From Eremomyces bilateralis CBS 781.70 (lineage: Eukaryota), in the NCBI GenBank assembly GCA_010015585.1, contig ML975160.1: 64,000 bases of DNA; one strand, given 5' to 3'. Below are positions 22,065-50,849 of this stretch, one piece after another. Below the pieces are notes generated by a model. The model ran no database searches. It was given only the letters and a program-made list of their open reading frames with translations, and was not told where the DNA came from. The position numbers and the translations under genes were made by a program. Position 1 is the first letter of the stretch. The number at the start of each line of letters is the position of its first letter.

Positions 22065-23044
22065 GACTGAATTGGTTGACCACACTTCACAAGGGACTTC
22101 GGATGGGAATATCAAGGAGCTGGTTCCTTCGTCACCGTCTGATCTCCCGTTTCACAGATCACTGACAGATGAAATATCAATTCAAATCCCTTGGCGACAC
22201 CGGAGTGGACAAGAGCAAGAGATAAGCATTTGTAAATCCAGCGGCAAGCGGGGTGCCAGTGCGGCCGTAATATTACTACTCACTTGGGTCCCGTGGTAGT
22301 GGGGGGGGCGTCGGTGGTTACCTCTTTGGTCGTAGTGGTGCGTTTTAGTTTCCGCGACGATGACACTTGCTGCAGGATGAGCAGATGAAGTCTAGGATGA
22401 GCTTCACGGCAATTGACTGTTGACAAGCGCCGGTTTTGCAAGCGCCGGTTAGCAAGCACCGTGGAGGTGTGTACAATCCATCCAACACCTCCGCGGGGCA
22501 GTCCAGCACTCACCGTTGAATATAGATGCTATTGTAATGAGTCATCCGATACGGAGTACCTACCTTATTCTCTCAAATCTCCAATGCGTGAACCAATTAT
22601 TCGAAGAAGTGAAATGGTCTCCTCCGGCCATCCGTTTCTTCTGCTCTAGGAGTCCGGATGATGTCGCTCTCTAAATTCTGAAATGTCATGTTCATCAAAA
22701 GCAAACGCCTTTCTCTTTTCTTACTAGTAGTTATATATTACTCAGAACTCATCAGAAGTCAGAGCCCATTTCCTATCAACTAATTTCACAATCACTGCTC
22801 AAAAATTCATCACACGTATACCGTTGTTCCTGCAGTAGACTTTCCTAATATAGTTGCCGACTTTTCATCCATTCTGCAATTCCGCTCAGGTCTATTCTCT
22901 ACTAGTCTAAGACAGCACTCCTGCTTTGTGGCCAACCCACATTGTGGTAACCACATCAGGACCAATCCGTAGAGAGAAGAAGTAGATTTAATGAATTCAG
23001 TCAATTCAACCACACTGTCTATTGTTCTGAAATTCCTCCGCTAA

Positions 23045-23935
23045 ATCCAAGAAGGTATACAAGCGTATGGAAATAGTGAAAGCCATTCTATTCGTAAATG
23101 CGCGGAAGAATACGGCGTGGGCTACTCTGCCCTTCAGGCCCGTCTACAAAAGGACCGAGAATCCCACCACGATGCAGCTAAGAAGCTCCTAAAATTGTCA
23201 CCTTTTATAGAAACAATACCTAGTTCAATAGATTACGGAAGAAGATCAATATGCGAGGGCTCCTTCGCATCAAAGAGTGTGCGAAATGGCTCGAACAATT
23301 GCTCGAGAAAATGAAGACGAGACCCCCTGCGGAAAGAATTGGATCGACGGCTTTCTTCGACGAAATCATAGTATCAAATCTATGGTAGGAAACTCTATCG
23401 AAGCCTCCCGCATAAGTGCACCCTCGAAAGAGATCATTTTGGATTAGTTAGGCTTCTTCGCCGCCTCATTGACTTCCACTCCATCAAGGCGTCAAATATA
23501 TGGAATTTCGACGAGCATGGAATCACCCTTGGTTGTGGCACGACCAGGCCTATATTGGCCCCTATTCAAAAGAAAAATAGAAAGAAAACCTACGTCAAAC
23601 CCCCTGATGATCGCGAGTGGGTGTCTATCATCGAAGCTATTTCTGCTGGCGGCCACTCGATTTCTCCCCTTGTGATCTTTAAGGGTAAAAGCTTGCAAAA
23701 TACTTGGTTTCCACGCCAAAATTGGCCTAAGTGGCACTATACATGCTCTGAGAATGCATGGACTTCGAATGAGATCGGCATTGAATGGCTTCGACGCAAA
23801 TTTCTCCCCGAATCGAAGCCACTGATTTCGACAGATTGGCGTCTCCTAATTTGTGACGGGCACGGTTCCCACGCTACTACTGATATTATGACGCTCTGTA
23901 AAGACAATAGGGTCATCCTCTTATATCTCCCTGCA
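23045..23935 (+). pseudogene. Fot1-like DDE transposase, 5' part, with frameshifts and stops
   Basis: HTH remnants (SIRKCAEEYGVGYSALQARL; CGKNWIDGFLRRN), IWNFDEHG, REWVSIIEAISAGG..PLVIFKGK and WRLLICDGHGSH. Breaks at LLYLPA, where HSSHxLQPLD would normally follow. Confidence 0.9.
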
Positions 23936-24084
23936 AACAGGCGTTACACAGGCAGAGACCATTTTGGTCGGGGGGCGACTGTAGAAGAGTATAGTACAGA
24001 TGGTACTGCTCGGAAATCTGTGGCAGGAGTCTGGATAGGCAGACTGGTGAAACCTGCTATTGTATACAAACACAATATAATGTC
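23933..24084 (+). repeat. 152-bp direct repeat, copy 1
   Basis: Aligns ungapped to 25143-25294 with about 15 mismatches by hand count (~90% identity). Confidence 0.95.
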
Positions 24085-24163
24085 CTGCCAACTGCACGCG
24101 TCCACGTCGCCGCGGGTGGAAACATTGATGGGGAAGAGTTCTCTATCGATGGCTAAGTGCAGT
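24052..24163 (+). ncRNA. HDV-like (CPEB3-type) self-cleaving ribozyme
   Basis: P1 ACCTGC(T) 24052-58 / CGCGGGT 24111-17; P2 ACTGCAC 24091-97 / GTGCAGT 24157-63; P3 GCG/CGC around loop TCCACGT; P1.1 CC/GG (24118-19); 13-bp P4 24123-35 / 24139-51; J4/2 GCTAA with putative catalytic C24153. Confidence 0.8.
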
Positions 24164-25142
24164 GGCGATGAAAGAGACGCACGCGTTACGCGTGCAGGTC
24201 GCAAGCGTTGAGCGTGGTATCGCCATACCACCAACACCAGCACGACCGTGTTTACTGCCTCCGCTTAGACACGGTGTCCTTTCATCAAGGGAGGCCTCTT
24301 GAGGGATAAAAATGGGAGATGAAAACCATCCGATAGGGGTCTATCCAGCTCGCAGCTGGATCCGGAAGCCTGACTTATTATCAGGTGGATGAGGACGCGT
24401 CCTAGGCCCCTAACAGGACACCCTCAGGCTCGCCTACTCTGGGGTTACGCGTGAGCAACGAGCTGCGTGTAGCGAGGGTTTGGAACAATCCTAATTCTAA
24501 AGAACTTGTTAAGGCTAACTTGGATAAACCTAGGTGAACTCTGTTAAGGCCGGAGGGCCTCTTCGCAACGGGAGCGCTTGTTAAGGCCCCTCTATCGGAA
24601 CCTGTTAATACCATAACGACACGAGCTTACGTACCGGGCGCGACAAGCACGACAGCTTACCGAACTGGAGTTACAGGCCAGTCGATAGAGGAGAAACACA
24701 GGTATGCTCCTGGTGGAGGCTTGATGGAGACACAGACCCGTCGCGTGGATCTATACAATGGGAGAATCACGGGCCAACTTAAGATGATGGAGGACACGAG
24801 CTTGGTTAGTGGGATAAGGCTGCTTGCGTTGCCCGGCGCGGAACGCATGCGTACTGCCTTATCCTGCAAGACACGGTCGGCCCATCAGAGGGAGACCCCT
24901 ATGGGCAACGCGAAACGGCTACTGTTTACAGTAGTCGCGGGGCGTAGTGCGTGGTAGCCACTGCTGGCTCCAAGGACCTCGTCCCGTCAATGGGCTCTGA
25001 CCCTTGGTGAATCTGAAAGCAGGCGGGATCAAACCCGGCCGGAGAGACTACCACGTGGCTCGAGAGAACGGATGCGCGTGTCGGTATACAGAGAGACAGG
25101 ACCAGTCGCTAGGCTGGAACGCTGGTGATGTATGCTTAAGGA

Positions 25143-25294
25143 GCAAACAGGCGTTACACAGGCAGAGACCCTTTTGGTTCGGGGGCGACTGTGGACAAGC
25201 TAAGTGCAGATGGCACAGCTCAGAAAACTGTGGCAGGAGTCTGGATAGGCAGACTGGTGAAACCTGCGATTGTATACAAACACAATATAATGTC
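25143..25294 (+). repeat. 152-bp direct repeat, copy 2, truncated by the LINE junction
   Basis: See copy 1. Carries ACCTGCG (25262-68), a full 7-bp partner (one G.U) for the ribozyme P1 3' strand. Confidence 0.95.
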
Positions 25295-26580
25295 GTGTCC
25301 CTCTCATGGAAGGACCATATCCTCCGGGCAATACAGAGGGGACTTAAGGCCTTCGACTCCCTGGCGAGGGTAACTTCATCGGTATGGGGACCATCCGTCC
25401 GGAAATCGAGGCTGCTCTACACAGCGGTTGCACGGCCCATTATGACATACGGCGCCCCTATTTGGGGAGTCTGTCAGCAGGGTGAGCCAATCTCTGAAGG
25501 CAAAATGAAGGACCTAGCCAAGGTTCAGAACAAGTGTCTACGAAAGATCCTAGGGGCTTACAAACGGACACCAATCGCCGCACTTGAGAGAGAGGCGGAC
25601 GTTCCCCCAATCGAACTCTACGTCCAAGAACGGGCCGCCCAAAGAGCAGCATCGACGAACACCCACCAGGTCACTACCCAGATTGAGGGAGCCCTGACGC
25701 AAGTCTGGGATGCTGCTTCTGCTCCCCCGAGACGAACTCGAGGCCGACCCCGCCGTATCCGGTCTAAACCTGAACCCGCGATGTGTACGCTTCGGACCCA
25801 GTATGACAGACTTCTGTTCCCCCGGCCCGAACCAATTAGAGGATATCAGACACAACAGCGAAAAGGCCCGTACCGGATGATCCAGGACGAGTATCGAGCG
25901 AAATGGAGGGAGAGATGGCAAGCCGAAGCGGCCAGAACAGGAAGGAGAGCAAGGACATGGAAGGACCCGTGGGAAACCCAGTGCCTTAACCGGTACGACG
26001 GCCTTCAGAAACACGAGGCCTCGGCGCTCATGGCACTACGGACTGAGGTAGTTGGAGTTAAAGGATGGCTCGCGAAACTTGGTGTCCCTGGAATCTACCC
26101 AGCGTGTGAGTGCGGTGCCCCCCGACAGTCTCTCTACCACCTCCTTGCATTTTGCCCGCAGCGGACCGACCAGAGGATCGCGCTCCTCCAACGTGCTGGA
26201 ACAACGGACTTTAAGAGGATATTGCATGACAGGGACAAGGTGCGCCACGCAGCAAGGTGGCTGATCAATGCGGGAGGCCTAGAGCAATACCGGGTGGCCA
26301 AGGAAGTTGAGGAGGAGGTAATAGAGGACTGGAAACCGTTCCAGCTCCTCCACGACGTGCCAGAATAAGCTCTCCGCGTAGGCGGAAACACCAACTCGTA
26401 CGGATAGATGATAAATGTTTGAGATAGTCTACTAAAGGGAGGAGGCGGGATTTTATATACCCGCAGCCTCAGGGCTACGGGGAAACTTTTGCCCGCGGCA
26501 GACCAGATAGAATGCCGTGCTCATAGACCCGAAAGGGATCCAGATAGTACGATAAATTGATTCTTATTATTATTATTAAT
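25295..26580 (+). mobile_element. 5'-truncated non-LTR retrotransposon (Tad1-like LINE), 3' end
   Basis: Open frame from LSWKDHI (RT thumb), then LLYTAVARPIMTYGAPIW, VQNKCLRKILGAYKRTP..ALEREADVPPI and CCHC finger CECGAPRQSLYHLLAFC. Stop at 26368, ~190-bp 3' UTR and (TTA)5 tail at 26564-26578. Confidence 0.92.
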
Positions 26581-26925
26581 ACGCCTAAAGGCCCCAAGGA
26601 TATCTATATCCAAAAATTTGGCGGAATGTCGGCGCAGGATTTCAGGGGGTTTCAGGGGAAACTGGCCAAGTCACCTTCGGAGAAGCATGCCGAAATAGCA
26701 GCGCTCAAATCCGAAGTTGCGAGGCATTCAAAAACAGTGGAAGATCTAGGCGGAGCTACTAAGAAAAGAAAACGAGTCCAAGTTGATCAAAATGGGCGAT
26801 TTGTCTCAATTGATCAAATTGTTGCGGCTTAGGAGGCGGCCAAACAAGCGGACTGACAGCTGTTCAAAGGAAGGTCACTTTTAACGCGGAAGAAACATCT
26901 CGACAATTTCAAGAGGCAGATTTCA
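26581..26925 (+). pseudogene. Fot1-like transposase, C-terminal remnant
   Basis: TPKGPKDIY..EIAALKSEV..KKRKRVQVDQNGRFVSIDQIVAA*, typical of Fot1/Pot2 C-termini; lies just inside the right TIR. Confidence 0.8.
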
Positions 26926-27779
26926 TGTCTCTTTGCTCACAATTACAATTATATATCTAGATAAATTATCGTTGTTGAGATACTGTCTGGAATCTACAGC
27001 TATACGATCTGTTTTCCACTGTTTTGGGCATTCTGGTGGAGTGACCACACTGTAGGTTGGCCACAAAGCAGCTGAGGGGTGCTGTCTTATCCATGTATCT
27101 GGATATCCATACGCCAATGACACCACTGATGACAAAGTCCGCCTCCTTGAGTTAGTTATTATGTTCTTAGTTTCGTTGCATCTGTCACATATAGTAGTTA
27201 GACAACACCACATTATACTTCCCTTGCTTTATAAGTTTTATACTTTGTGATATGTCCCGAGATCATATAGTTGCTGCAGCCGAATAAGTATAGAGGGCGT
27301 TCGACGTCACTGGAGTAATAAAGGGAGTGTCCCCTCTAGCTGTGCAACCGTGCCAATGACTGTAGAATAGTGAGTTATGGGAGAAGAAGTAGGGCACAGG
27401 ATATCTCGGGATGGCGGAGAGTGGGTGGGGAGCGCATAACTTCGGAAGAGAGCATGTGAAGGATCATGGGAGTTCCATTTAAGGTGTAATTTTGATCAGT
27501 GGACAAACAGTTGCTGAAAAGGATATTTTCGCTTCGCAGTAGAAAGTAAGAAATATAATTAAGTCGTGATATTATAGAACTAGCATAGTATAGAGTATGG
27601 GATACAAAATATGGATAGCGGCTGGGGAAAATGTGAATGGCAATCCAACAACACCGTGGATCATGCCCAATTTCGTACAGAATATTGATAGACCCATAGA
27701 GGGAGGAAAATCTCCGCTAAACTCGCTAGATCTTGAATTGAAAGCCAAAATCGGAATCATCAACAGTTCGCACACTGTA

Positions 27780-30700
27780 TCAATCATCGTCCGAGCTCGT
27801 GGTGTCGCTATCCTCGTCCTTTGGGCGGCTATCCCTCCAACTGGGGGGCTTGCTCCGCCCACCTCTGGGTGCTTCCCGTCTCGCAGCGCTGCCGCCACTG
27901 AACGTTGCCGGCTCCTCATCATCTTCATCCCTGGCATCATCAAACCGTCGTGGTCTCCCATATCCGCTGCGCGGCCCGTGAGATGCACCGGCGATTGTCA
28001 TCCCGGGGTTTGGCCTCGAGTCACGGTAATCCATACGGATCTGGTTCGTGCGTGCTCGAGCAGACTCATCTTTCCCACCGAAGAGGTCTGTGATGTATTG
28101 ATCGAAGCCTTCAGCGACCTTTGCAACTTTCTCGAAATGCTTTTTTCGCAGGATAAGTCGCTTTTCTTTGCCTTCGGTGGCATTCGAGTTTTTCAAATTA
28201 CGTGACTGGTCTGAACGACTATCCCATTCTGCAAGAGCGACTGCCGTCTCGAATGCATTTTGAATTTGCCTGAGTAGAAAGGATTAGCGAGATATTCCAC
28301 ACTGAGAATGTAAATGTTGTAGGTCTGGGGGGCGGAGGGGACGAAAGCGGGGGGCAAAGGGAGAGTCATGGATTGATAAAACTGACCTCCCGTTCCACTG
28401 CCGTCGCTTCTCTGAACTTGCAATATAATGTTGCTCGGCCCAATCAAGGATCTCGTTTGTTTTAACCTTGGGTTTCGAACCCGATTTCGTCTTGCGACCC
28501 TCAAAGCCCCTGACTACACGATCCAGACGATTTTGGTAGATTTGCATAGTGGTATCAAGGTCAAGCGGCTTGTACTCGAGAGTCACATGAATTCTGGACT
28601 TGAAGCCTGCGTCGATGTCTCCAACCCGATTTGTAGTCAAGAACAAGATTCCCTGGCAAAAAAATGTCAGTAAGTAGGCCTAGGACCCACGGAAACGCGG
28701 ACTGACATTGTAGTACTCAAGCTGCCGAAGGAAAACTGTTTGGACTGATCAGCAGAACTCCTTGCGTTGCTTTGGGTCCCCTTACCTGATACGATGGCAT
28801 TAATATTGATTTGGTTCGCAACCCGCCGTTGCAAGAAGACGTCCGCTTCGTCGAGCAGAAGAACACATCCCCACTTGTCAGCAAGGCTGAAATGCCACCT
28901 CAGATTGTCCTCCACCTTCTCTGGAGACGTGCCCAGGTTGCCGGAGGTCAAAGAATATAGTGGTTTTCCGACTCGCGCCGTGATGCATTCCACGGTACTC
29001 GTCTTTCCTATCCCAGGGGGGCCGTGCAATAGGAAAACCAAACCCCTTCCTTTGGACGATATGAAATCACCGAACGTGCTGTCAGCGCCCCGGCCACCAT
29101 TGACTGCTTCTTCGCGGGCCAAATGTTGACGGACGAGGGCCTCCACAGTCTCTTTGTGATCCGCAGGAAGGACAAGGTCATCCCAGGGGTCGTATGCGGT
29201 TGGGCTTTGCAAGTTCTTTTCCGAGGTGCTAATAATCGCCCATTTCCTTGTGACCAAAAGATAAGCATAGACACGATCAGGAAGCAAAATAGCATCCTCA
29301 TCGCCGTCGATCTCCTTCCGCGGTTCGAACAAATGCTTGTTCGGTCGCAAAAAATTCCGCTCGTTCGCCAGGTCCACGGAGAAGTCGTTCTCGACTGGAT
29401 CACCCGTGCAGCAGTTGGCGTAACGGCAGAACCGATTGTCGCTGTACATTTCAGCCCACTCTCGATTATCTTTGGGCTGTTAGCGCTAATTAGGTTATTA
29501 GGGTAAAGGGCACGTACCGTGATCGATGAGGTCCAAGTCCGGGTTCAACTTGATCGGCTCCCAATCCTCTTTCTGCTCAAAGGCCTCTTTGAAGTCAATG
29601 ATGACTTCGGAGTTGATCTGCTCGCCACGCGCATCTTCGTCTAGATTTGGGCCGGCATACCGTCTATGGGTCGTCTTCTTGCTAGCAACGTCCATGAAAA
29701 CTCGTCCTCGGCCCTCAAGTTGATTGCGAAGCGCCGCCCGCTTGGAATCGAAATGCAACGGATACACGGCAAGATCGGTAACTTTCCGTTCCCCTTCATA
29801 TCGCTGAATGCCAAATGTCTTTCCCTGGGGAATGTAGACTTCGCCGTCAAATGTGAGTGACCAGCATTGAACTGCGAACGCCCCATACCAATTACCAGGA
29901 CCAAGGGAGTTGGATGGAGGGTTTTTAGGAGGATCAACGACGCTGTATGTAAGTTCTCGACCGCCAGTATAGGTGAGAACTCGATAGATTGCCAGCGATC
30001 CTTGCTCTTGTCCAGCAGCAACAACCTCTTGTCCAATCTGGAACAGATGCCAAAGATCATCGAAAGCAATCGTCTCCAGACTTCCTTCTTGAATTCGGCC
30101 GCGCAAATCCAAGATACTTTTCAGATCTTGATCCATGAACTGCATGAAGAGCTTCATGTGCTCGTATGCCGTTTGGGAATCGATTGTTTCGTCATCGTCA
30201 TCTCCTACGACATTTGTCTCCGGCCCTCCAGGACTGGTCCGTTTCACCGCCGGCGATCCATCGAACTTTGCTTCGAAGACATCAGTCCTATCAATCGGGG
30301 TCTTCGGCCGTTCATATTTCGCTTCGAGATTGCGGAAAGCCTCCCGTATTTTCTGTTCGTTTGTCACGAAGGTCTTGTAAGGACGCAAAAAGACCAATTT
30401 GCCATGCCTTAGGGCCCAGTTACTGTTGGTCACACTTTTCAAAACGGTCAAGAGAGGTTTCGAGCGGATCCTTAATCTTGGAGGAGGCCTTCCAGATTTC
30501 AACCAGCCAGGAGGCGGGGAATGAAAGTCCATCTCCACCGCCCCTTCTGGCTCGTCCGAGATTTGCACATGTTCATTCGGATTCTGCTTGCTCGTCTGTG
30601 CTCTAACCTTTCCGGGCTCTTCTACCAGGATTTCAAGCACCGATCCAGGTGTCGGATCTGGGCGAAAGTTATGAAATCCCGTCTCATTAGGTAATACGGG

Positions 30701-31246
30701 CGCCGGTTTGGGCTTGAACTCATCCCAACCAAGGTAGCGGCTAGCGACTTCATGAACTGGAGGCTGAAATGACTTTGCGCGCTTAGAAACCGGTTTGTCT
30801 TCGCCGCGGATATTGCGTAGCTCTTTCTCCAAAGCTGACACGCGGCTTTCAAGCCTGGCGGCATATCGTACTGATGCTACCGCTCGTCTCATGACCTGCT
30901 CCTGTTTCGTAGTTGAGTCCTCTTTATAGACACTTAGATAAGCTTGCTCGACATCCGACTCACTTTCTGAGCCGGAGACGTCCGAATCAAGTGCGACTAT
31001 CTTGGACTTCCCTGTTCCCGCTCGTTTGGGTGGACGGTCCTCACCGTCAATGGGATCTTCTGTTTTGGCAGGGGATGGAGGGTCATAGGGAGAGGCTGGA
31101 TGGTATGGCTCTGTACTTTCTCTGACGAACGGTTCATTCTGTTCCAACGTTGTCGGCGTCGGCGGGATCACAGCCGTAATTGGAGTAACGGCATCCACAG
31201 GAGAACGAGGCTCCTCAGCCTTCTCCGGGCCCAAGACATCGGCCAT
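27780..31246 (-). CDS. Large fungal AAA+ ATPase (~1065 aa; single C-terminal AAA module, long N-terminal domain)
   Basis: Walker A LLHGPPGIGKT, Walker B VLLLDEADVFL, VFLRQLEYYNGILFLTTNR, FKSRIH and WNGRQIQNAF; N-terminal IAFDDLWHLF. Introns 29470-29517, 28736-28785, 28653-28706 and 28270-28386 give a continuous frame. Confidence 0.92.
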
Positions 31247-48416: not shown

Positions 48417-50849
48417 ATGGCCGACGATCACGAGAACGAAGACCGAGGGAATGATCTCGAACTTCGCATTCTATCCCCTTCCTCCGAGCTGCCTGGGCCG
48501 CTCACCCTTAAAGTTCCGATTTCGACAACAGTAGCGGAATTGAAGTTGAGGGTCAAGAATGCCGTTGCATCGAAGCCCGAACCCTCAAGGCAACGCCTGA
48601 TCCATAAAGGAAGAGTCATGGCCAATGAGTCGGAGGATTTGGCGTCCATATTCGGGGCAGAGCATATCAAGAACTCCGAATATATCAGTCTCCATCTGGT
48701 GCTTAAAGACTTACAAACGTCTGGCCCTCCTCGTTCTTCGACAGCGCCTCCAGGCGCCATGCGAAGCCCTCTTCAACCATACCAGACTGATTCACGACTC
48801 GAGCAACCCCGCGGAATACCGACAAGTCACCCCGTTGGCGCGAATCCGAGTTCCTCTGTCGCTCTGGGCACTACCCCCGCTACAAACGCCGGGGCAATTC
48901 CAGCTCAGCAGCCTAATTACGCGCAAGGCATCCCAAGCTTCGGTTTTATGCCCGTTCCGAGCCCACTCGGCCTTCACCAGCAAGCCGTGGCGATGGCCCA
49001 AGGCCATCTCCATCCTGCAATGCAAGCTGCCTTCCCCCCTCAGTTACATCCACATGGACTGCCTCCACACATCCACGGAGCGGAAGCGCCGACTCCCTCC
49101 CCGCATCCGAATTCGAACATTCTATTACAACCACATGCGCATACCCAGCAAAGAATGCCCGCGGGATCCCCTGACTTTGCTGCGGAGGACGGCAATCAGC
49201 ATGGCATTCCTGGGACGAGAGGCAGACTGAACGCCTCACATTCAGACCCTAACCTGGCTGCAAGGGCAAATGCCCAAAACCAACAGCAGCAGCAGCAGCA
49301 GCAGCAGCAGTCGCAAATGCAGCCCGGGTCCTTCACCAATCGACCTGCTAATGCACGGTATACCGTTACTATGGAAAGCAGAATTACTTCGGTATACCCA
49401 GGCCCTTCAAATCCGCCACACGTCGCTCATCCGATGACTTATACTCTCCCTCAGGGTCCGCCCGTATTTGCTCAGCCGTCGAATCGAGCTCAGCCAAGGA
49501 TCCAGAATCAAGCCTCTACGCAAGTGTACCTGCTCTCCTCCCCATCAGGACCACATGCCTTGCTTGTCGGGCCAAGTGGGACCTATTCAAGCGACAACCT
49601 CTCGCCAAATATCTGGTCAACTCTACTGAACAGTCAGAGTCCACTGGAGCGACATGATACCTCTGCAAGCAATGCCGCCCAACGTTTCCGCACATCCGTC
49701 GACCCTCAGCCATCCTCCTCACGTCAACTCCAACCCCGTTTCGACCAACACACGGTATCTCAACATCCGACCCACCAACACCCTGGTCACTACCCCCACC
49801 ATCATCATCTACATCAACACCCACACCAGCCCTCATCACGCCAACCTCACCCGCAACCCGCCAATGCCGAAGCTCCTCCTGTTGCCCCTATCCCCGTCGC
49901 AAACGCACAAAATGCCCAACCCAATATCCAGCCCCATGCCCTACCCAACGGCGTACCGAACGCGGACGATAACGCGGGTGAGCTCCGTAACCTGCTTCTT
50001 CCCGCCATGGGCCACCTCTGGCTCGCTGTCCGATTGATTGGCCTCTGGTACCTCTTCAATGGCAGCGCGTCCCCCTTTTCGCGCGGCTTCGACCGCATCA
50101 TGGTCCTGGTCGGGTTCATCACCCTGGTCTATCTCGCCTATCTCGGTGGCTTCCTCGGCGATTCCGCGCAGCGCGTTCGACGGTATTGGGATGCGCTGGT
50201 GTTCGGCGACGAGCAGCAGCAGCCGGGTCAAGAGGGAGCCGGTGCCGGTGTCGACACCAACGGATCCGCGCAGGGCCTACACCGTCCGGCGCGTGGGCAG
50301 CAGAGAACCCCCCCTAACCCTGCCCAGCTCGCGAACCGCATCCATGACGACACGCCTCTCAACCGCTTCCTCCACGAGGCCCGCGAGCGCGTGCGTACCG
50401 TCGAGCGCGGGGTGGCGCTCTTCGTCGCCAGCCTGTACCCCGGCTTCGGCGAGCGCGTGATCCGCGAACGGCAGCGGCGGGAAGAGGAGCAGGCCAGACA
50501 GGGAGCGGAGGTGGTGGAGGCGGAGGTGGCGATGGCGGCAGCGGCAGCAGCCGTGGAAGGACAGGCGCCAGATCAGGGCGTGCGGGAGGGGGAGGGGAGG
50601 ATGCAGCAGCAAGGAGGGGCGCCGGGCCCGGTGGATGGAGCGGAGCCGCAGGTCATCGAGGATCAACGGCCGCTGTGGGATTTGGGGGATGGGAGGGGAC
50701 GAGGGGGCGACGCGGCGGTCGCTACGGGGAGGGATGATGGCGCTGGCAGTGAAGGGCTTTCTGCAAGAGGGCATGGCAGTACCGGTTCTCAGACTGAGCC
50801 GATAGACGCTGGTGAGAGATCTCAGGCTGCGGATGCAGGTCAAGACTGA
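48417..50849 (+). CDS. Ubiquitin-like-domain ER membrane protein (Usa1/HERP-like)
   Basis: N-terminal UBL (TTVAELKLRV..QRLIHKGRVM..ISLHLVL), VYLLSSPSGPHALL, two TM helices (HLWLAVRLIGLWYLF) and LFVASLYPGFGER; polyQ tract. Confidence 0.8.
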   Translation: MADDHENEDRGNDLELRILSPSSELPGPLTLKVPISTTVAELKLRVKNAVASKPEPSRQRLIHKGRVMANESEDLASIFGAEHIKNSEYISLHLVLKDLQTSGPPRSSTAPPGAMRSPLQPYQTDSRLEQPRGIPTSHPVGANPSSSVALGTTPATNAGAIPAQQPNYAQGIPSFGFMPVPSPLGLHQQAVAMAQGHLHPAMQAAFPPQLHPHGLPPHIHGAEAPTPSPHPNSNILLQPHAHTQQRMPAGSPDFAAEDGNQHGIPGTRGRLNASHSDPNLAARANAQNQQQQQQQQQQSQMQPGSFTNRPANARYTVTMESRITSVYPGPSNPPHVAHPMTYTLPQGPPVFAQPSNRAQPRIQNQASTQVYLLSSPSGPHALLVGPSGTYSSDNLSPNIWSTLLNSQSPLERHDTSASNAAQRFRTSVDPQPSSSRQLQPRFDQHTVSQHPTHQHPGHYPHHHHLHQHPHQPSSRQPHPQPANAEAPPVAPIPVANAQNAQPNIQPHALPNGVPNADDNAGELRNLLLPAMGHLWLAVRLIGLWYLFNGSASPFSRGFDRIMVLVGFITLVYLAYLGGFLGDSAQRVRRYWDALVFGDEQQQPGQEGAGAGVDTNGSAQGLHRPARGQQRTPPNPAQLANRIHDDTPLNRFLHEARERVRTVERGVALFVASLYPGFGERVIRERQRREEEQARQGAEVVEAEVAMAAAAAAVEGQAPDQGVREGEGRMQQQGGAPGPVDGAEPQVIEDQRPLWDLGDGRGRGGDAAVATGRDDGAGSEGLSARGHGSTGSQTEPIDAGERSQAADAGQD

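What the first reader, a model, noticed from the sequence alone, without database searches (positions are those of the whole stretch)
24052..24163. Near-canonical HDV/CPEB3-type ribozyme fold
Seen: all nested double-pseudoknot elements occur in the right order. They are a 7-bp P2 (extendable by GCC/GGC), P3 GCG/CGC, L3 UCCACGU, GG for P1.1, a fully paired 13-bp P4 and J4/2 GCUAA. P1 has 6 of 7 pairs in copy 1 (ACCUGCU) and 7 of 7 with the copy-2 variant (ACCUGCG). J1/2 (32 nt) holds its own hairpin (ATTGTAT/ATATAAT). Established: the CPEB3 ribozyme core reads GCG UUCACGU CGC. Inference: cleavage 5' of A24052, with C24153 catalytic. An alternative P1 5' strand, ATCTGTG (24016-22), is possible.
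Basis: partly seen in the sequence, partly recalled or inferred. Interest (0 to 1): 0.82.

Follow-up and report, generated by a model that had tools for sequence, protein, structure and literature searches.

The report
Truncated HDV-like ribozyme of fungal retrotransposon
This is the core of a hepatitis-delta-type self-cutting RNA that caps the front end of a repeated jumping gene in a fungus, but the copy in this window has lost the short strand that sets the cut site, so it is probably a dead relic.

Summary
A core-only HDV descriptor, written after seeing the candidate, finds this site once in the window. It finds nothing in 537,670 nt of related loci and nothing in 150 shuffles. Rfam gives only a weak RF00094 hit: 20.2 bits against a gathering score of 50.

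The core (24088-24166) lies in the 5' UTR of an APE+RT non-LTR retrotransposon fragment inserted in a pogo/Fot1 DDE transposon. Contigs of public runs laid on the locus show many other copies. There the core is preceded by GCCCGCGAAGT, and the sequence further upstream differs between copies. GCCCGCG pairs 7 of 7 with CGCGGGU 24111-24117, with G.U at the cut site. So the family carries a canonical HDV-like ribozyme at the element's 5' boundary.

The window copy lacks these 11 nt. At 24087/24088 it is fused to a second, 90% identical copy of the last 155 nt of its own 5' UTR.

Verdict: a new fungal member of a known kind, and this copy is probably inactive. No cleavage or RNA-end data exist.

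The parts
22921..27071 (+). Host element: a degenerate pogo/Fot1-type DDE transposon. Inverted terminal repeats lie at 22921-22959 and 27033-27071. The transposase frame is broken at about 23933-23939.
   Evidence: inverted repeat, 39 nt, 85% complementary. Pfam DDE_1, E 8.5e-22, ending at residue 189 (about nt 23938), profile positions 2-110 of 177.
23933..24087 (+). Extra copy (copy 1) of the last 155 nt of the retrotransposon's 5' UTR, ending 8 nt into ATG 24080-82. It is joined to the ribozyme core at 24087/24088.
   Evidence: 90% identical to 25143-25297; 16 mismatches, 7 transitions and 9 transversions; in a 25-kb contig of run X5 this segment follows 25178, i.e. its native place is downstream of the UTR body.
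24052..24058 (+). It is a chance surrogate inside the extra piece.
   Evidence: 6 of 7 pairs with 24111-17; a second strand with at least 6 of 7 pairs lies at 24043. My arithmetic expects about 0.02 such strands per position.
24082..24088 (+). P1 5' strand chosen by the Rfam HDV model: G(U)CCUGC, 6 pairs with U24083 bulged. It also lies in or straddles the joined-on piece.
   Evidence: alignment.
24088..24090 (+). Rest of native J1/2 (CCA). Likeness to the other genomic copies begins here.
   Evidence: loose ends 'before 24088' (run X1, 4 contigs; run X3, 2 contigs) and 'before 24090' (run X5).
24091..24097 (+). P2 5' strand, ACUGCAC.
   Evidence: 7 of 7 pairs with 24157-63. Recovered in the minimum-energy fold.
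24098..24110 (+). P3 (GCG/CGC) closing L3 UCCACGU. C24102 and C24103 form P1.1.
   Evidence: unique 13-mer in the window.
24111..24117 (+). P1 3' strand, CGCGGGU.
   Evidence: 7 of 7 pairs with the native leader GCCCGCG seen, with G.U at the cut site.
24118..24119 (+). GG of P1.1.
24123..24151 (+). P4 hairpin, 13 bp with loop GAG.
   Evidence: The two variants listed in other copies, 24132 G>A and 24147 C>U, both keep their pairs (with the pair list).
24152..24156 (+). J4/2, GCUAA. C24153 is at the catalytic-C position.
   Evidence: Aligned to GGCuAA of RF00094. Catalysis was not tested.
24157..24166 (+). P2 3' strand GUGCAGU plus GGC.
24167..25142 (+). Body of the long non-coding 5' UTR. It holds blocks conserved in the 5' UTRs of two related elements.
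   Evidence: colinear blocks with L012 8661-9386 and L052 281-755; no RT-profile likeness in any frame.
25143..25297 (+). Native copy (copy 2) of the UTR's last 155 nt, with ATG at 25290-92. It is joined at 25297/25298 directly to the RT tail, an internal deletion of most of the ORF.
   Evidence: a 22-nt block spanning 25142/25143 is identical in L052; the X5 contig runs unbroken over 24090-25178.
25298..26368 (+). C-terminal third of the APE+RT ORF, equal to residues 763-1137 of P0002.
   Evidence: 55.7% identity, E 7e-114; profile positions 759-1128; other copies read ...LRVLGVWLDP just upstream of 25298.
26369..26579 (+). 3' UTR ending in (TTA)5 at 26564-26578.
   Evidence: summed depth falls from about 77,000 to about 300 after the bin 26528-26628.

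Best explanation
Positions 24088-24166 are the catalytic core (J1/2 end, P2, P3/L3, P1 3' strand, P1.1, P4, J4/2 with C24153, P2 3' strand) of an HDV-like self-cleaving ribozyme. This ribozyme forms the 5' terminus of a multi-copy APE+RT non-LTR retrotransposon of an ascomycete.

In intact copies, 11 further nucleotides (GCCCGCGAAGT) precede position 24088. Their first seven pair with 24111-24117, so the transcript would be cut just 5' of that G. This would free the element RNA from whatever upstream transcript it was read through from, as in R2, L1Tc, baggins and RTE. The uncapped RNA would then depend on the long, partly conserved 5' UTR for translation (inferred).

The copy in the window is a dead-end insertion inside a DDE transposon.
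- It is internally deleted, with the UTR end joined to RT codon ~763.
- Its 5' end stops 11 nt short of the true end.
- There it is joined to a second copy of the last 155 nt of the UTR that differs at 16 of 155 positions. The most likely cause is reverse transcriptase switching templates during insertion (inferred).
- Without its P1 5' strand it most likely cannot cleave at the native site.

Shown: the anatomy, the junctions, the native leader in other copies, and the differing flanks. Inferred: catalysis, the role in processing, and template switching.
For: Structure of the core
- All helices and joining regions are present in the right order.
- The core-only descriptor gives 1 hit in the window, 0 in 537,670 nt of loci and 0 in 150 shuffles.
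- The best Rfam match of the region is RF00094 HDV_ribozyme over the full model, positions 1-89.

Independent test of P1
- Contigs of runs X1 (4 contigs), X3 (2 contigs) and X5 (1 contig, another organism label) match from 24088 or 24090 onward.
- Just upstream all three loose-end consensus sequences read A-GCCCGCGAAGT. Further upstream they differ from one another, with agreement of 0.67 to 0.75 within runs.
- GCCCGCG pairs 7 of 7 with 24111-17, with G.U first. By my arithmetic the chance of this is about 0.002 per position.

Context
- The RT tail matches 36 proteins, most of 1,085-1,168 aa, with RVT_1 and Exo_endo_phos domains.
- The UTR body shares colinear blocks with the UTRs of L012 and L052.
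- 1,951 contigs of X1 were laid on the stretch. Summed depth is roughly 10 times higher over the 3' tail than over the UTR, as expected from 5' truncation (the tool warns that depth is not copy number).

Variants in P4
- Both listed variants keep their pairs.

Origin of the extra piece
- It differs from the native one by 16 of 155 positions, 9 of them transversions. This fits two source molecules rather than a local duplication.

Known precedent
- HDV-like ribozymes sit at the 5' ends of R2, L1Tc, baggins and RTE elements, with conserved downstream and differing upstream sequence (PMC6765202, passages read).
Against: - No cleavage assay and no RNA 5'-end data exist.
- Rfam scores are far below gathering (20.2 against 50) and nothing passes at gathering. 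By my scaling of the E-value, a 20-bit RF00094 hit is expected in about 4% of 64-kb windows.
- No covariation could be shown. I never saw the individual contigs, only 30-letter consensus loose ends, and 159 variant rows were not shown.
- Variant density listed in the core (2 in 79 nt) is no lower than in the rest of the UTR (20 in 976 nt).
- Neither locus with a related UTR gives the ribozyme. L052 begins inside the UTR. L012 shows no HDV fold upstream.
- None of 11 related full-length loci gave an HDV-like Rfam hit at E <= 10.
- The descriptor was written after seeing the candidate.
- Template switching is one of several ways to obtain the junctions.
Confidence: 0.72

Rival explanations
1. 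One reading: the window copy is itself an active HDV/CPEB3-type ribozyme. It uses ACCUGCU 24052-58 as P1 and a 32-nt J1/2 with its own hairpin, and cuts 5' of A24052.
For: - 6 contiguous pairs plus the J1/2 hairpin, 7 of 7.
- Large HDV-like ribozymes with a helix in J1/2 are known, and that helix speeds them up (PMC4908430, abstract and passages).
Against: - The strand lies in a joined-on piece that is not next to the core in other copies.
- Surrogates of this quality are expected by chance. Two were found within 45 nt.
- The first pair is A-U rather than the G.U wobble of the native copies.
- U24058 x C24111 is a mismatch.
- The repeat shows no sign of selection. Copy 2's better-pairing variant lies 1.2 kb downstream of the core.
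Confidence: 0.1
2. The window copy cleaves at 24081/24082 using G24082(U)CCUGC, the P1 picked by the Rfam model, with a short J1/2.
For: - RF00094 alignment.
- 6 pairs with G.U first and J1/2 of 2 nt.
- The strand was created by the junction itself.
Against: - It needs a bulged U inside P1.
- It scores only 20.2 bits.
- The pairing arises from an accidental junction.
- There are no RNA data.
Confidence: 0.07
3. The fold is not catalytic at all. It is a chance HDV look-alike, or a conserved 5' structure that serves only for protein binding or translation.
For: - The score is below Rfam gathering.
- No covariation was found, and no ribozyme in L012 or in 11 related loci.
Against: - The native leader supplies a perfect 7-bp P1 with G.U exactly where flanks begin to differ.
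- 0 hits in 150 shuffles for the core.
- L3, P1.1 and J4/2 carry the residues expected at the active site.
Confidence: 0.1

Closest known systems
HDV-like ribozymes at the 5' ends of non-LTR retrotransposons (R2, L1Tc, baggins, RTE)
   Same: - Nested double-pseudoknot core.
- Position at the first nucleotide of the element.
- Conserved downstream and differing upstream sequence.
- Host element with APE+RT, as in L1Tc and RTE.
- Many 5'-truncated copies.
- Internally deleted derivatives that keep the 5' and 3' ends, like R2 SIDEs.
(PMC6765202 and PMC3185411, passages read.)
   Different: - The host is an ascomycete fungus; one search shows a 100% match to a protein that NCBI names from Eremomyces bilateralis.
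- The examples in the passages I read are metazoan and trypanosomatid.
- There is no rDNA target.
- A ~1.2-kb 5' UTR follows the ribozyme.
- The sequence is unrelated to those families by Rfam; only a weak RF00094 hit was found.
Hepatitis delta virus ribozyme (Rfam RF00094)
   Same: - The full-length model alignment covers positions 1-89.
- L3 begins UCC, GG forms P1.1, and J4/2 reads GGCUAA as in the model consensus.
   Different: - 20.2 bits against a gathering score of 50.
- Not part of a circular RNA replicon.
- P4 and P2 sequences are unrelated.
CPEB3 ribozyme (mammalian intronic)
   Same: The same general fold.
   Different: - No Rfam CPEB3 match at E <= 10.
- It is a repeated transposon part in a fungus, not a single-copy conserved intronic element.
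Chimeric or internally deleted non-LTR copies made by template switching of the reverse transcriptase
   Same: Junctions fall between non-adjacent parts of the element RNA: 24087/24088 and 25297/25298, plus the joints 24087>25818 and 25297>25758 in other copies. The R2 reverse transcriptase is reported to synthesise cDNA continuously on non-continuous templates; I saw this only as a title in the reference list of PMC6765202.
   Different: All four junctions share one left end, 8 nt after the ATG. I cannot explain this, and I did not find it described.

Membership tests
HDV-like self-cleaving ribozymes | Order P1-J1/2-P2-P3-L3-P3'-P1'-P1.1-P4-J4/2-P2', forming a nested double pseudoknot | tested here: met
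   One search gives the pair lists. The core is complete in the window. The P1 5' strand is supplied only by the native leader seen in other copies.
HDV-like self-cleaving ribozymes | 7-bp P1 starting at the cleavage site, with a G.U wobble as first pair | tested here: inconclusive
   Met by the native leader GCCCGCG against 24111-17, 7 of 7 with G.U first. Not met in the window copy: the leader is absent, and the surrogates give 6 of 7 with A-U first, or 6 pairs with a bulge.
HDV-like self-cleaving ribozymes | Two-pair P1.1 between L3 and the nucleotides after P1' | tested here: met
   C24102-G24119 and C24103-G24118.
HDV-like self-cleaving ribozymes | Catalytic cytosine in J4/2 | tested here: inconclusive
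   C24153 in GCUAA aligns with the C of GGCuAA in RF00094. Its role in catalysis cannot be tested here.
HDV-like self-cleaving ribozymes | Mg2+-dependent self-scission giving a 5'-OH product | not testable with these tools
   No assay is possible. No run on record as RNA was listed.
Rfam RF00094 / CPEB3 / drz-Agam families | Covariance-model score at or above the gathering threshold | tested here: not met
   0 matches at gathering in the whole window. RF00094 scores 20.2 bits against 50. No other HDV-type family appears at E <= 10.
Ribozyme-terminated non-LTR retrotransposons | Ribozyme cut site coincides with the element's 5' boundary (same downstream, different upstream sequence among copies) | tested here: met
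   three loose-end consensus sequences share A-GCCCGCGAAGT and differ upstream of it. Individual contigs were not seen.
Ribozyme-terminated non-LTR retrotransposons | Element encodes an endonuclease and a reverse transcriptase | tested here: met
   The window holds only the RT tail. Full-length relatives carry PF03372 or PF14529 plus PF00078.

The most novel reading that the evidence does not exclude
A fungal non-LTR family combines a 5' HDV-like ribozyme with a 1.2-kb conserved UTR. It also produces a discrete UTR-only RNA that ends 8 nt after the start codon. That 3' end, perhaps made by a second processing event, would be the preferred landing site when the reverse transcriptase switches templates. 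This would explain why four different junctions (to 24088, 25298, 25758 and 25818) share one left end, and why the family spawns ribozyme-bearing, ORF-less derivatives.
Probability: 0.15. Interest if true: 0.6.

Novelty: new member of a known kind. Interest (0 to 1): 0.42.

Why it matters
HDV-like ribozymes at retrotransposon 5' ends are well documented in animals and trypanosomes. In the library I could search, the only fungal mention I read is one sentence of unpublished 'laboratory data' on Penicillium chrysogenum (PMC3185411).

A clear, multi-copy fungal family would extend this processing strategy to ascomycete LINE-like elements. It would also give a testable case of an uncapped element RNA with a long conserved leader.

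For this window the practical point is a correction. The site is real, but the copy is truncated.

Tried and rejected
- Own genome search: no genome is held for this window.
- Earlier notes of this scan: nothing by sequence, place or words.
- Is the 155-nt repeat RT-coding? A 'GVW' motif caught my eye. A profile of 34 homologues (P0001, P0036 and P0037 left out) finds no likeness upstream of 25298 in any frame. I dropped the idea.
- I first thought copy 2 was a cleaved leader RNA and copy 1 plus the UTR an uncleaved transcript. I rejected this because the X5 contig and L052 show that the repeat's native place is downstream of the UTR body.
- Comparative support from relatives:
  - Of 78 metagenome loci, only 2 (L012, L052) share the UTR.
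  - L052 starts inside the UTR.
  - L012 7800-9000 gives no Rfam hit, and only an AT-rich, unconvincing relaxed-descriptor hit.
  - 11 related loci (65,029 nt) give 7 Rfam matches at E <= 10, none HDV-like.
- The loose descriptor is not discriminating: 2 cores in the window (24098 on +, 49083 on -) and 7 cores in the loci.
- The native 11-mer is absent from the window apart from three 1-mismatch chance hits (expected 1.14). It is absent from all 78 loci.
- RNA evidence: no RNA holder was listed. X3 is only guessed to be RNA and consists of contigs, so nothing can be said on expression or RNA ends.
- RIP as the cause of the repeat divergence: 9 of 16 differences are transversions, so I rejected it.
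- Literature: one search was a badly chosen search and returned irrelevant papers. Ruminski et al. 2011 is not held.
- I did not fold or score a leader-plus-core sequence, because that would need a joined sequence. The pairing was checked strand against strand instead.

Full report
**The observation**

- P2: 24091-97 / 24157-63, 7 of 7 pairs, with a GCC/GGC extension.
- P3: GCG/CGC.
- L3: UCCACGU.
- P1.1: C24102 and C24103 with G24118 and G24119.
- P4: 13 bp, 24123-35 / 24139-51, three of the pairs G.U.
- J4/2: GCUAA, with C24153.
- P1 candidate: ACCUGCU 24052-58, pairing 6 of 7.
- A 7-bp AU-rich hairpin in the proposed J1/2.

The core is not a chance pattern.
- The 13-nt P3/L3 core occurs once in the window (expected 0.08).
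- A descriptor for the core without any P1 5' strand hits once in the window. It hits nowhere in 537,670 nt of related loci, and nowhere in 150 dinucleotide shuffles of the window. I wrote that descriptor after seeing the candidate, so it is biased in its favour.
- The nested fold of 24088-24170 has z = -3.15 and recovers P2 and P4.

Rfam is lukewarm.
- Nothing passes at gathering in the whole window.
- A permissive scan of 601 nt gives RF00094 HDV_ribozyme over its full length at 20.2 bits, against a gathering score of 50, with E = 1.6.
- By my scaling of that E-value, such a hit is expected in about 4% of 64-kb windows.

**Surroundings**

- The window is fungal. A 582-aa ORF at 29498-31246 (-) is 100% identical to a protein that NCBI names from the ascomycete Eremomyces bilateralis. 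No whole genome is held for it.
- The site lies in a pogo/Fot1-type DDE transposon. Its inverted ends are at 22921-59 and 27033-71. The DDE_1 domain breaks off at about 23938.
- The inserted block runs from 23933 to about 26579, in this order:
  1. A 155-nt segment, 23933-24087.
  2. The ribozyme core and about 1 kb of non-coding sequence, 24088-25142.
  3. A second copy of the 155-nt segment, 25143-25297. It is 90% identical to the first, with 16 differences, 9 of them transversions.
  4. The last third of an APE+RT ORF, 25298-26368. This equals residues 763-1137 of P0002, at 55.7% identity and E 7e-114.
  5. A 3' UTR ending in (TTA)5.
- The 36 homologues found are mostly single proteins of 1,085-1,168 aa with endonuclease and RVT_1 domains.
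- The block is therefore a fragment of an APE-type non-LTR retrotransposon.

**The non-coding kilobase is the element's 5' UTR**

- Of 78 loci of RT relatives fetched from metagenome contigs, two share colinear blocks with 24314-25151 upstream of their ORFs. These are L012 and L052.
- The shared blocks include a 20-mer with one change, and a 22-mer that is identical in L052 and spans 25142/25143.
- In L052 the ORF's ATG follows 245 nt later.
- So the second 155-nt copy is in its native place, and the first copy is the odd one.

**The decisive evidence: public-run contigs laid on 23700-26700**

- The element is highly repeated. 1,951 contigs of run X1 and 350 of run X3 were laid. Summed depth is roughly ten times higher over the 3' tail than over the UTR. 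The tool warns that depth is not copy number.
- Contigs that match the core stop matching at 24088 (X1: 4 contigs; X3: 2) or at 24090 (X5: a 25-kb contig under another organism label).
- Their unmatched upstream parts all end in A-GCCCGCGAAGT. Further upstream the three consensus sequences are unrelated to each other, and agreement within a run is only 0.67-0.75.
- GCCCGCG pairs 7 of 7 with CGCGGGU 24111-17, with a G.U wobble as the first pair and a J1/2 of about 7 nt.
By my arithmetic, a random 7-mer pairs fully with that strand with probability of about 0.002 per position.
- The point where copies stop resembling one another is the predicted cut site. That is the signature described for ribozyme-terminated retrotransposons (PMC6765202, passages).
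- The two variants listed inside the core, 24132 G>A and 24147 C>U, each keep their P4 pair. This is weak support, since transitions often do so. Another 159 variant rows were not shown.

**What the window copy is**

- It lacks the 11-nt leader. No copy of the leader is in the window.
- At 24087/24088 the core is joined, with a possible 2-nt CC overlap, to the extra 155-nt UTR piece.
- The X5 contig shows the native order: leader, core, UTR body, 155-nt segment, then other sequence.
- The native RT sequence upstream of 25298 reads ...LRVLGVWLDP in other copies. So 25297/25298 is an internal deletion junction.
- The copy resembles the internally deleted R2 'SIDE' elements mentioned in PMC6765202. 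On top of that it carries a 5' truncation and an added UTR piece.
- I infer that the reverse transcriptase switched templates. The two 155-nt copies differ too much, and with too many transversions, for a recent local duplication or RIP.
Strands pairing at least 6 of 7 with a G-rich partner are expected about once or more in 70 nt, and one search found two within 45 nt.
- The copy is therefore most likely inactive, though weak cutting through a surrogate P1 cannot be excluded without an assay.

**Limits**

- There are no cleavage data and no usable RNA data. No run on record as RNA was listed.
- No covariation analysis was possible, because I saw only consensus loose ends.
- L012, the one relative with sequence upstream of the shared UTR, shows no HDV fold.
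- None of 11 related full-length loci gave an HDV-type Rfam hit. The ribozyme may therefore be confined to this sub-family.

**An unexplained point**

- Both 155-nt copies end at the same nucleotide, 8 nt after an ATG (24080 and 25290) that resembles the ORF start context of L052.
- Other copies join that same end to 25758 and 25818.
- One left end with four different right ends suggests a preferred acceptor for template switching. I have no tested mechanism for it.

**Comparison and novelty**

- In fold and position this works like the 5' HDV-like ribozymes of R2, L1Tc, baggins and RTE.
- It is not a member of any Rfam family by score, and it is not CPEB3-type by any test I could run.
- Literature searches in the held library gave:
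  - 4 papers with 'HDV-like ribozyme', 'non-LTR' and 'fungi';
  - 7 with HDV-like, ribozyme, retrotransposon and fungal;
  - 0 with Tad1.
- I read passages of PMC6765202, PMC3185411, PMC4908430 and one 2026 preprint.
- The only fungal mention I read is a sentence on unpublished Penicillium chrysogenum data.
- Webb et al. 2009 and Ruminski et al. 2011 are not held. Their supplements may list fungal hits.
- I rate this a new fungal member of a known kind, of moderate interest.

Noticed in passing
window 24087 and 25297; joints 24087>25818 and 25297>25758 in runs X1 and X3: Both copies of the 155-nt UTR segment end at the same nucleotide, 8 nt after the ATG. In other genomic copies that same end is joined to two further positions in the RT tail. 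This is a recurrent left breakpoint with four different right partners, and I cannot explain it.
   Followed up: partly
window 24314-25151; L012 8661-9386; L052 281-755: The long 5' UTR holds colinear conserved blocks, among them a 20-mer with one change and a 22-mer that is identical. The RT proteins of the query family are only about 27-32% identical to these two loci. This suggests a functional RNA, such as a translation or protein-binding element.
   Followed up: partly
window 22921-27071: The host of the insertion is a degenerate pogo/Fot1-type DDE transposon. It has 39-nt inverted ends (85% complementary) and a weak HTH_psq match below the Pfam cut-off. Its DDE_1 domain stops at profile position 110 of 177, and only about 85 codons follow the insert, so part of the transposase is missing.
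   Followed up: partly
window 29498-31246 (-): A 582-aa ORF is 100% identical over 99% of its length to a 936-aa AAA+ ATPase-domain protein that NCBI names from Eremomyces bilateralis CBS 781.70. The annotated protein is longer, so the gene probably has introns or a longer 5' part.
   Followed up: no
window 49036-49221 (-): The loose HDV descriptor also hit here (L3 GTCGAAG, P2 GAACAG/TTGTTC). The hit fails the stricter core descriptor, and I take it as chance.
   Followed up: yes
window 24851-24854, runs X1 and X3: Some other copies of the element carry a 38-nt insertion in the UTR at this point (table 5c).
   Followed up: no
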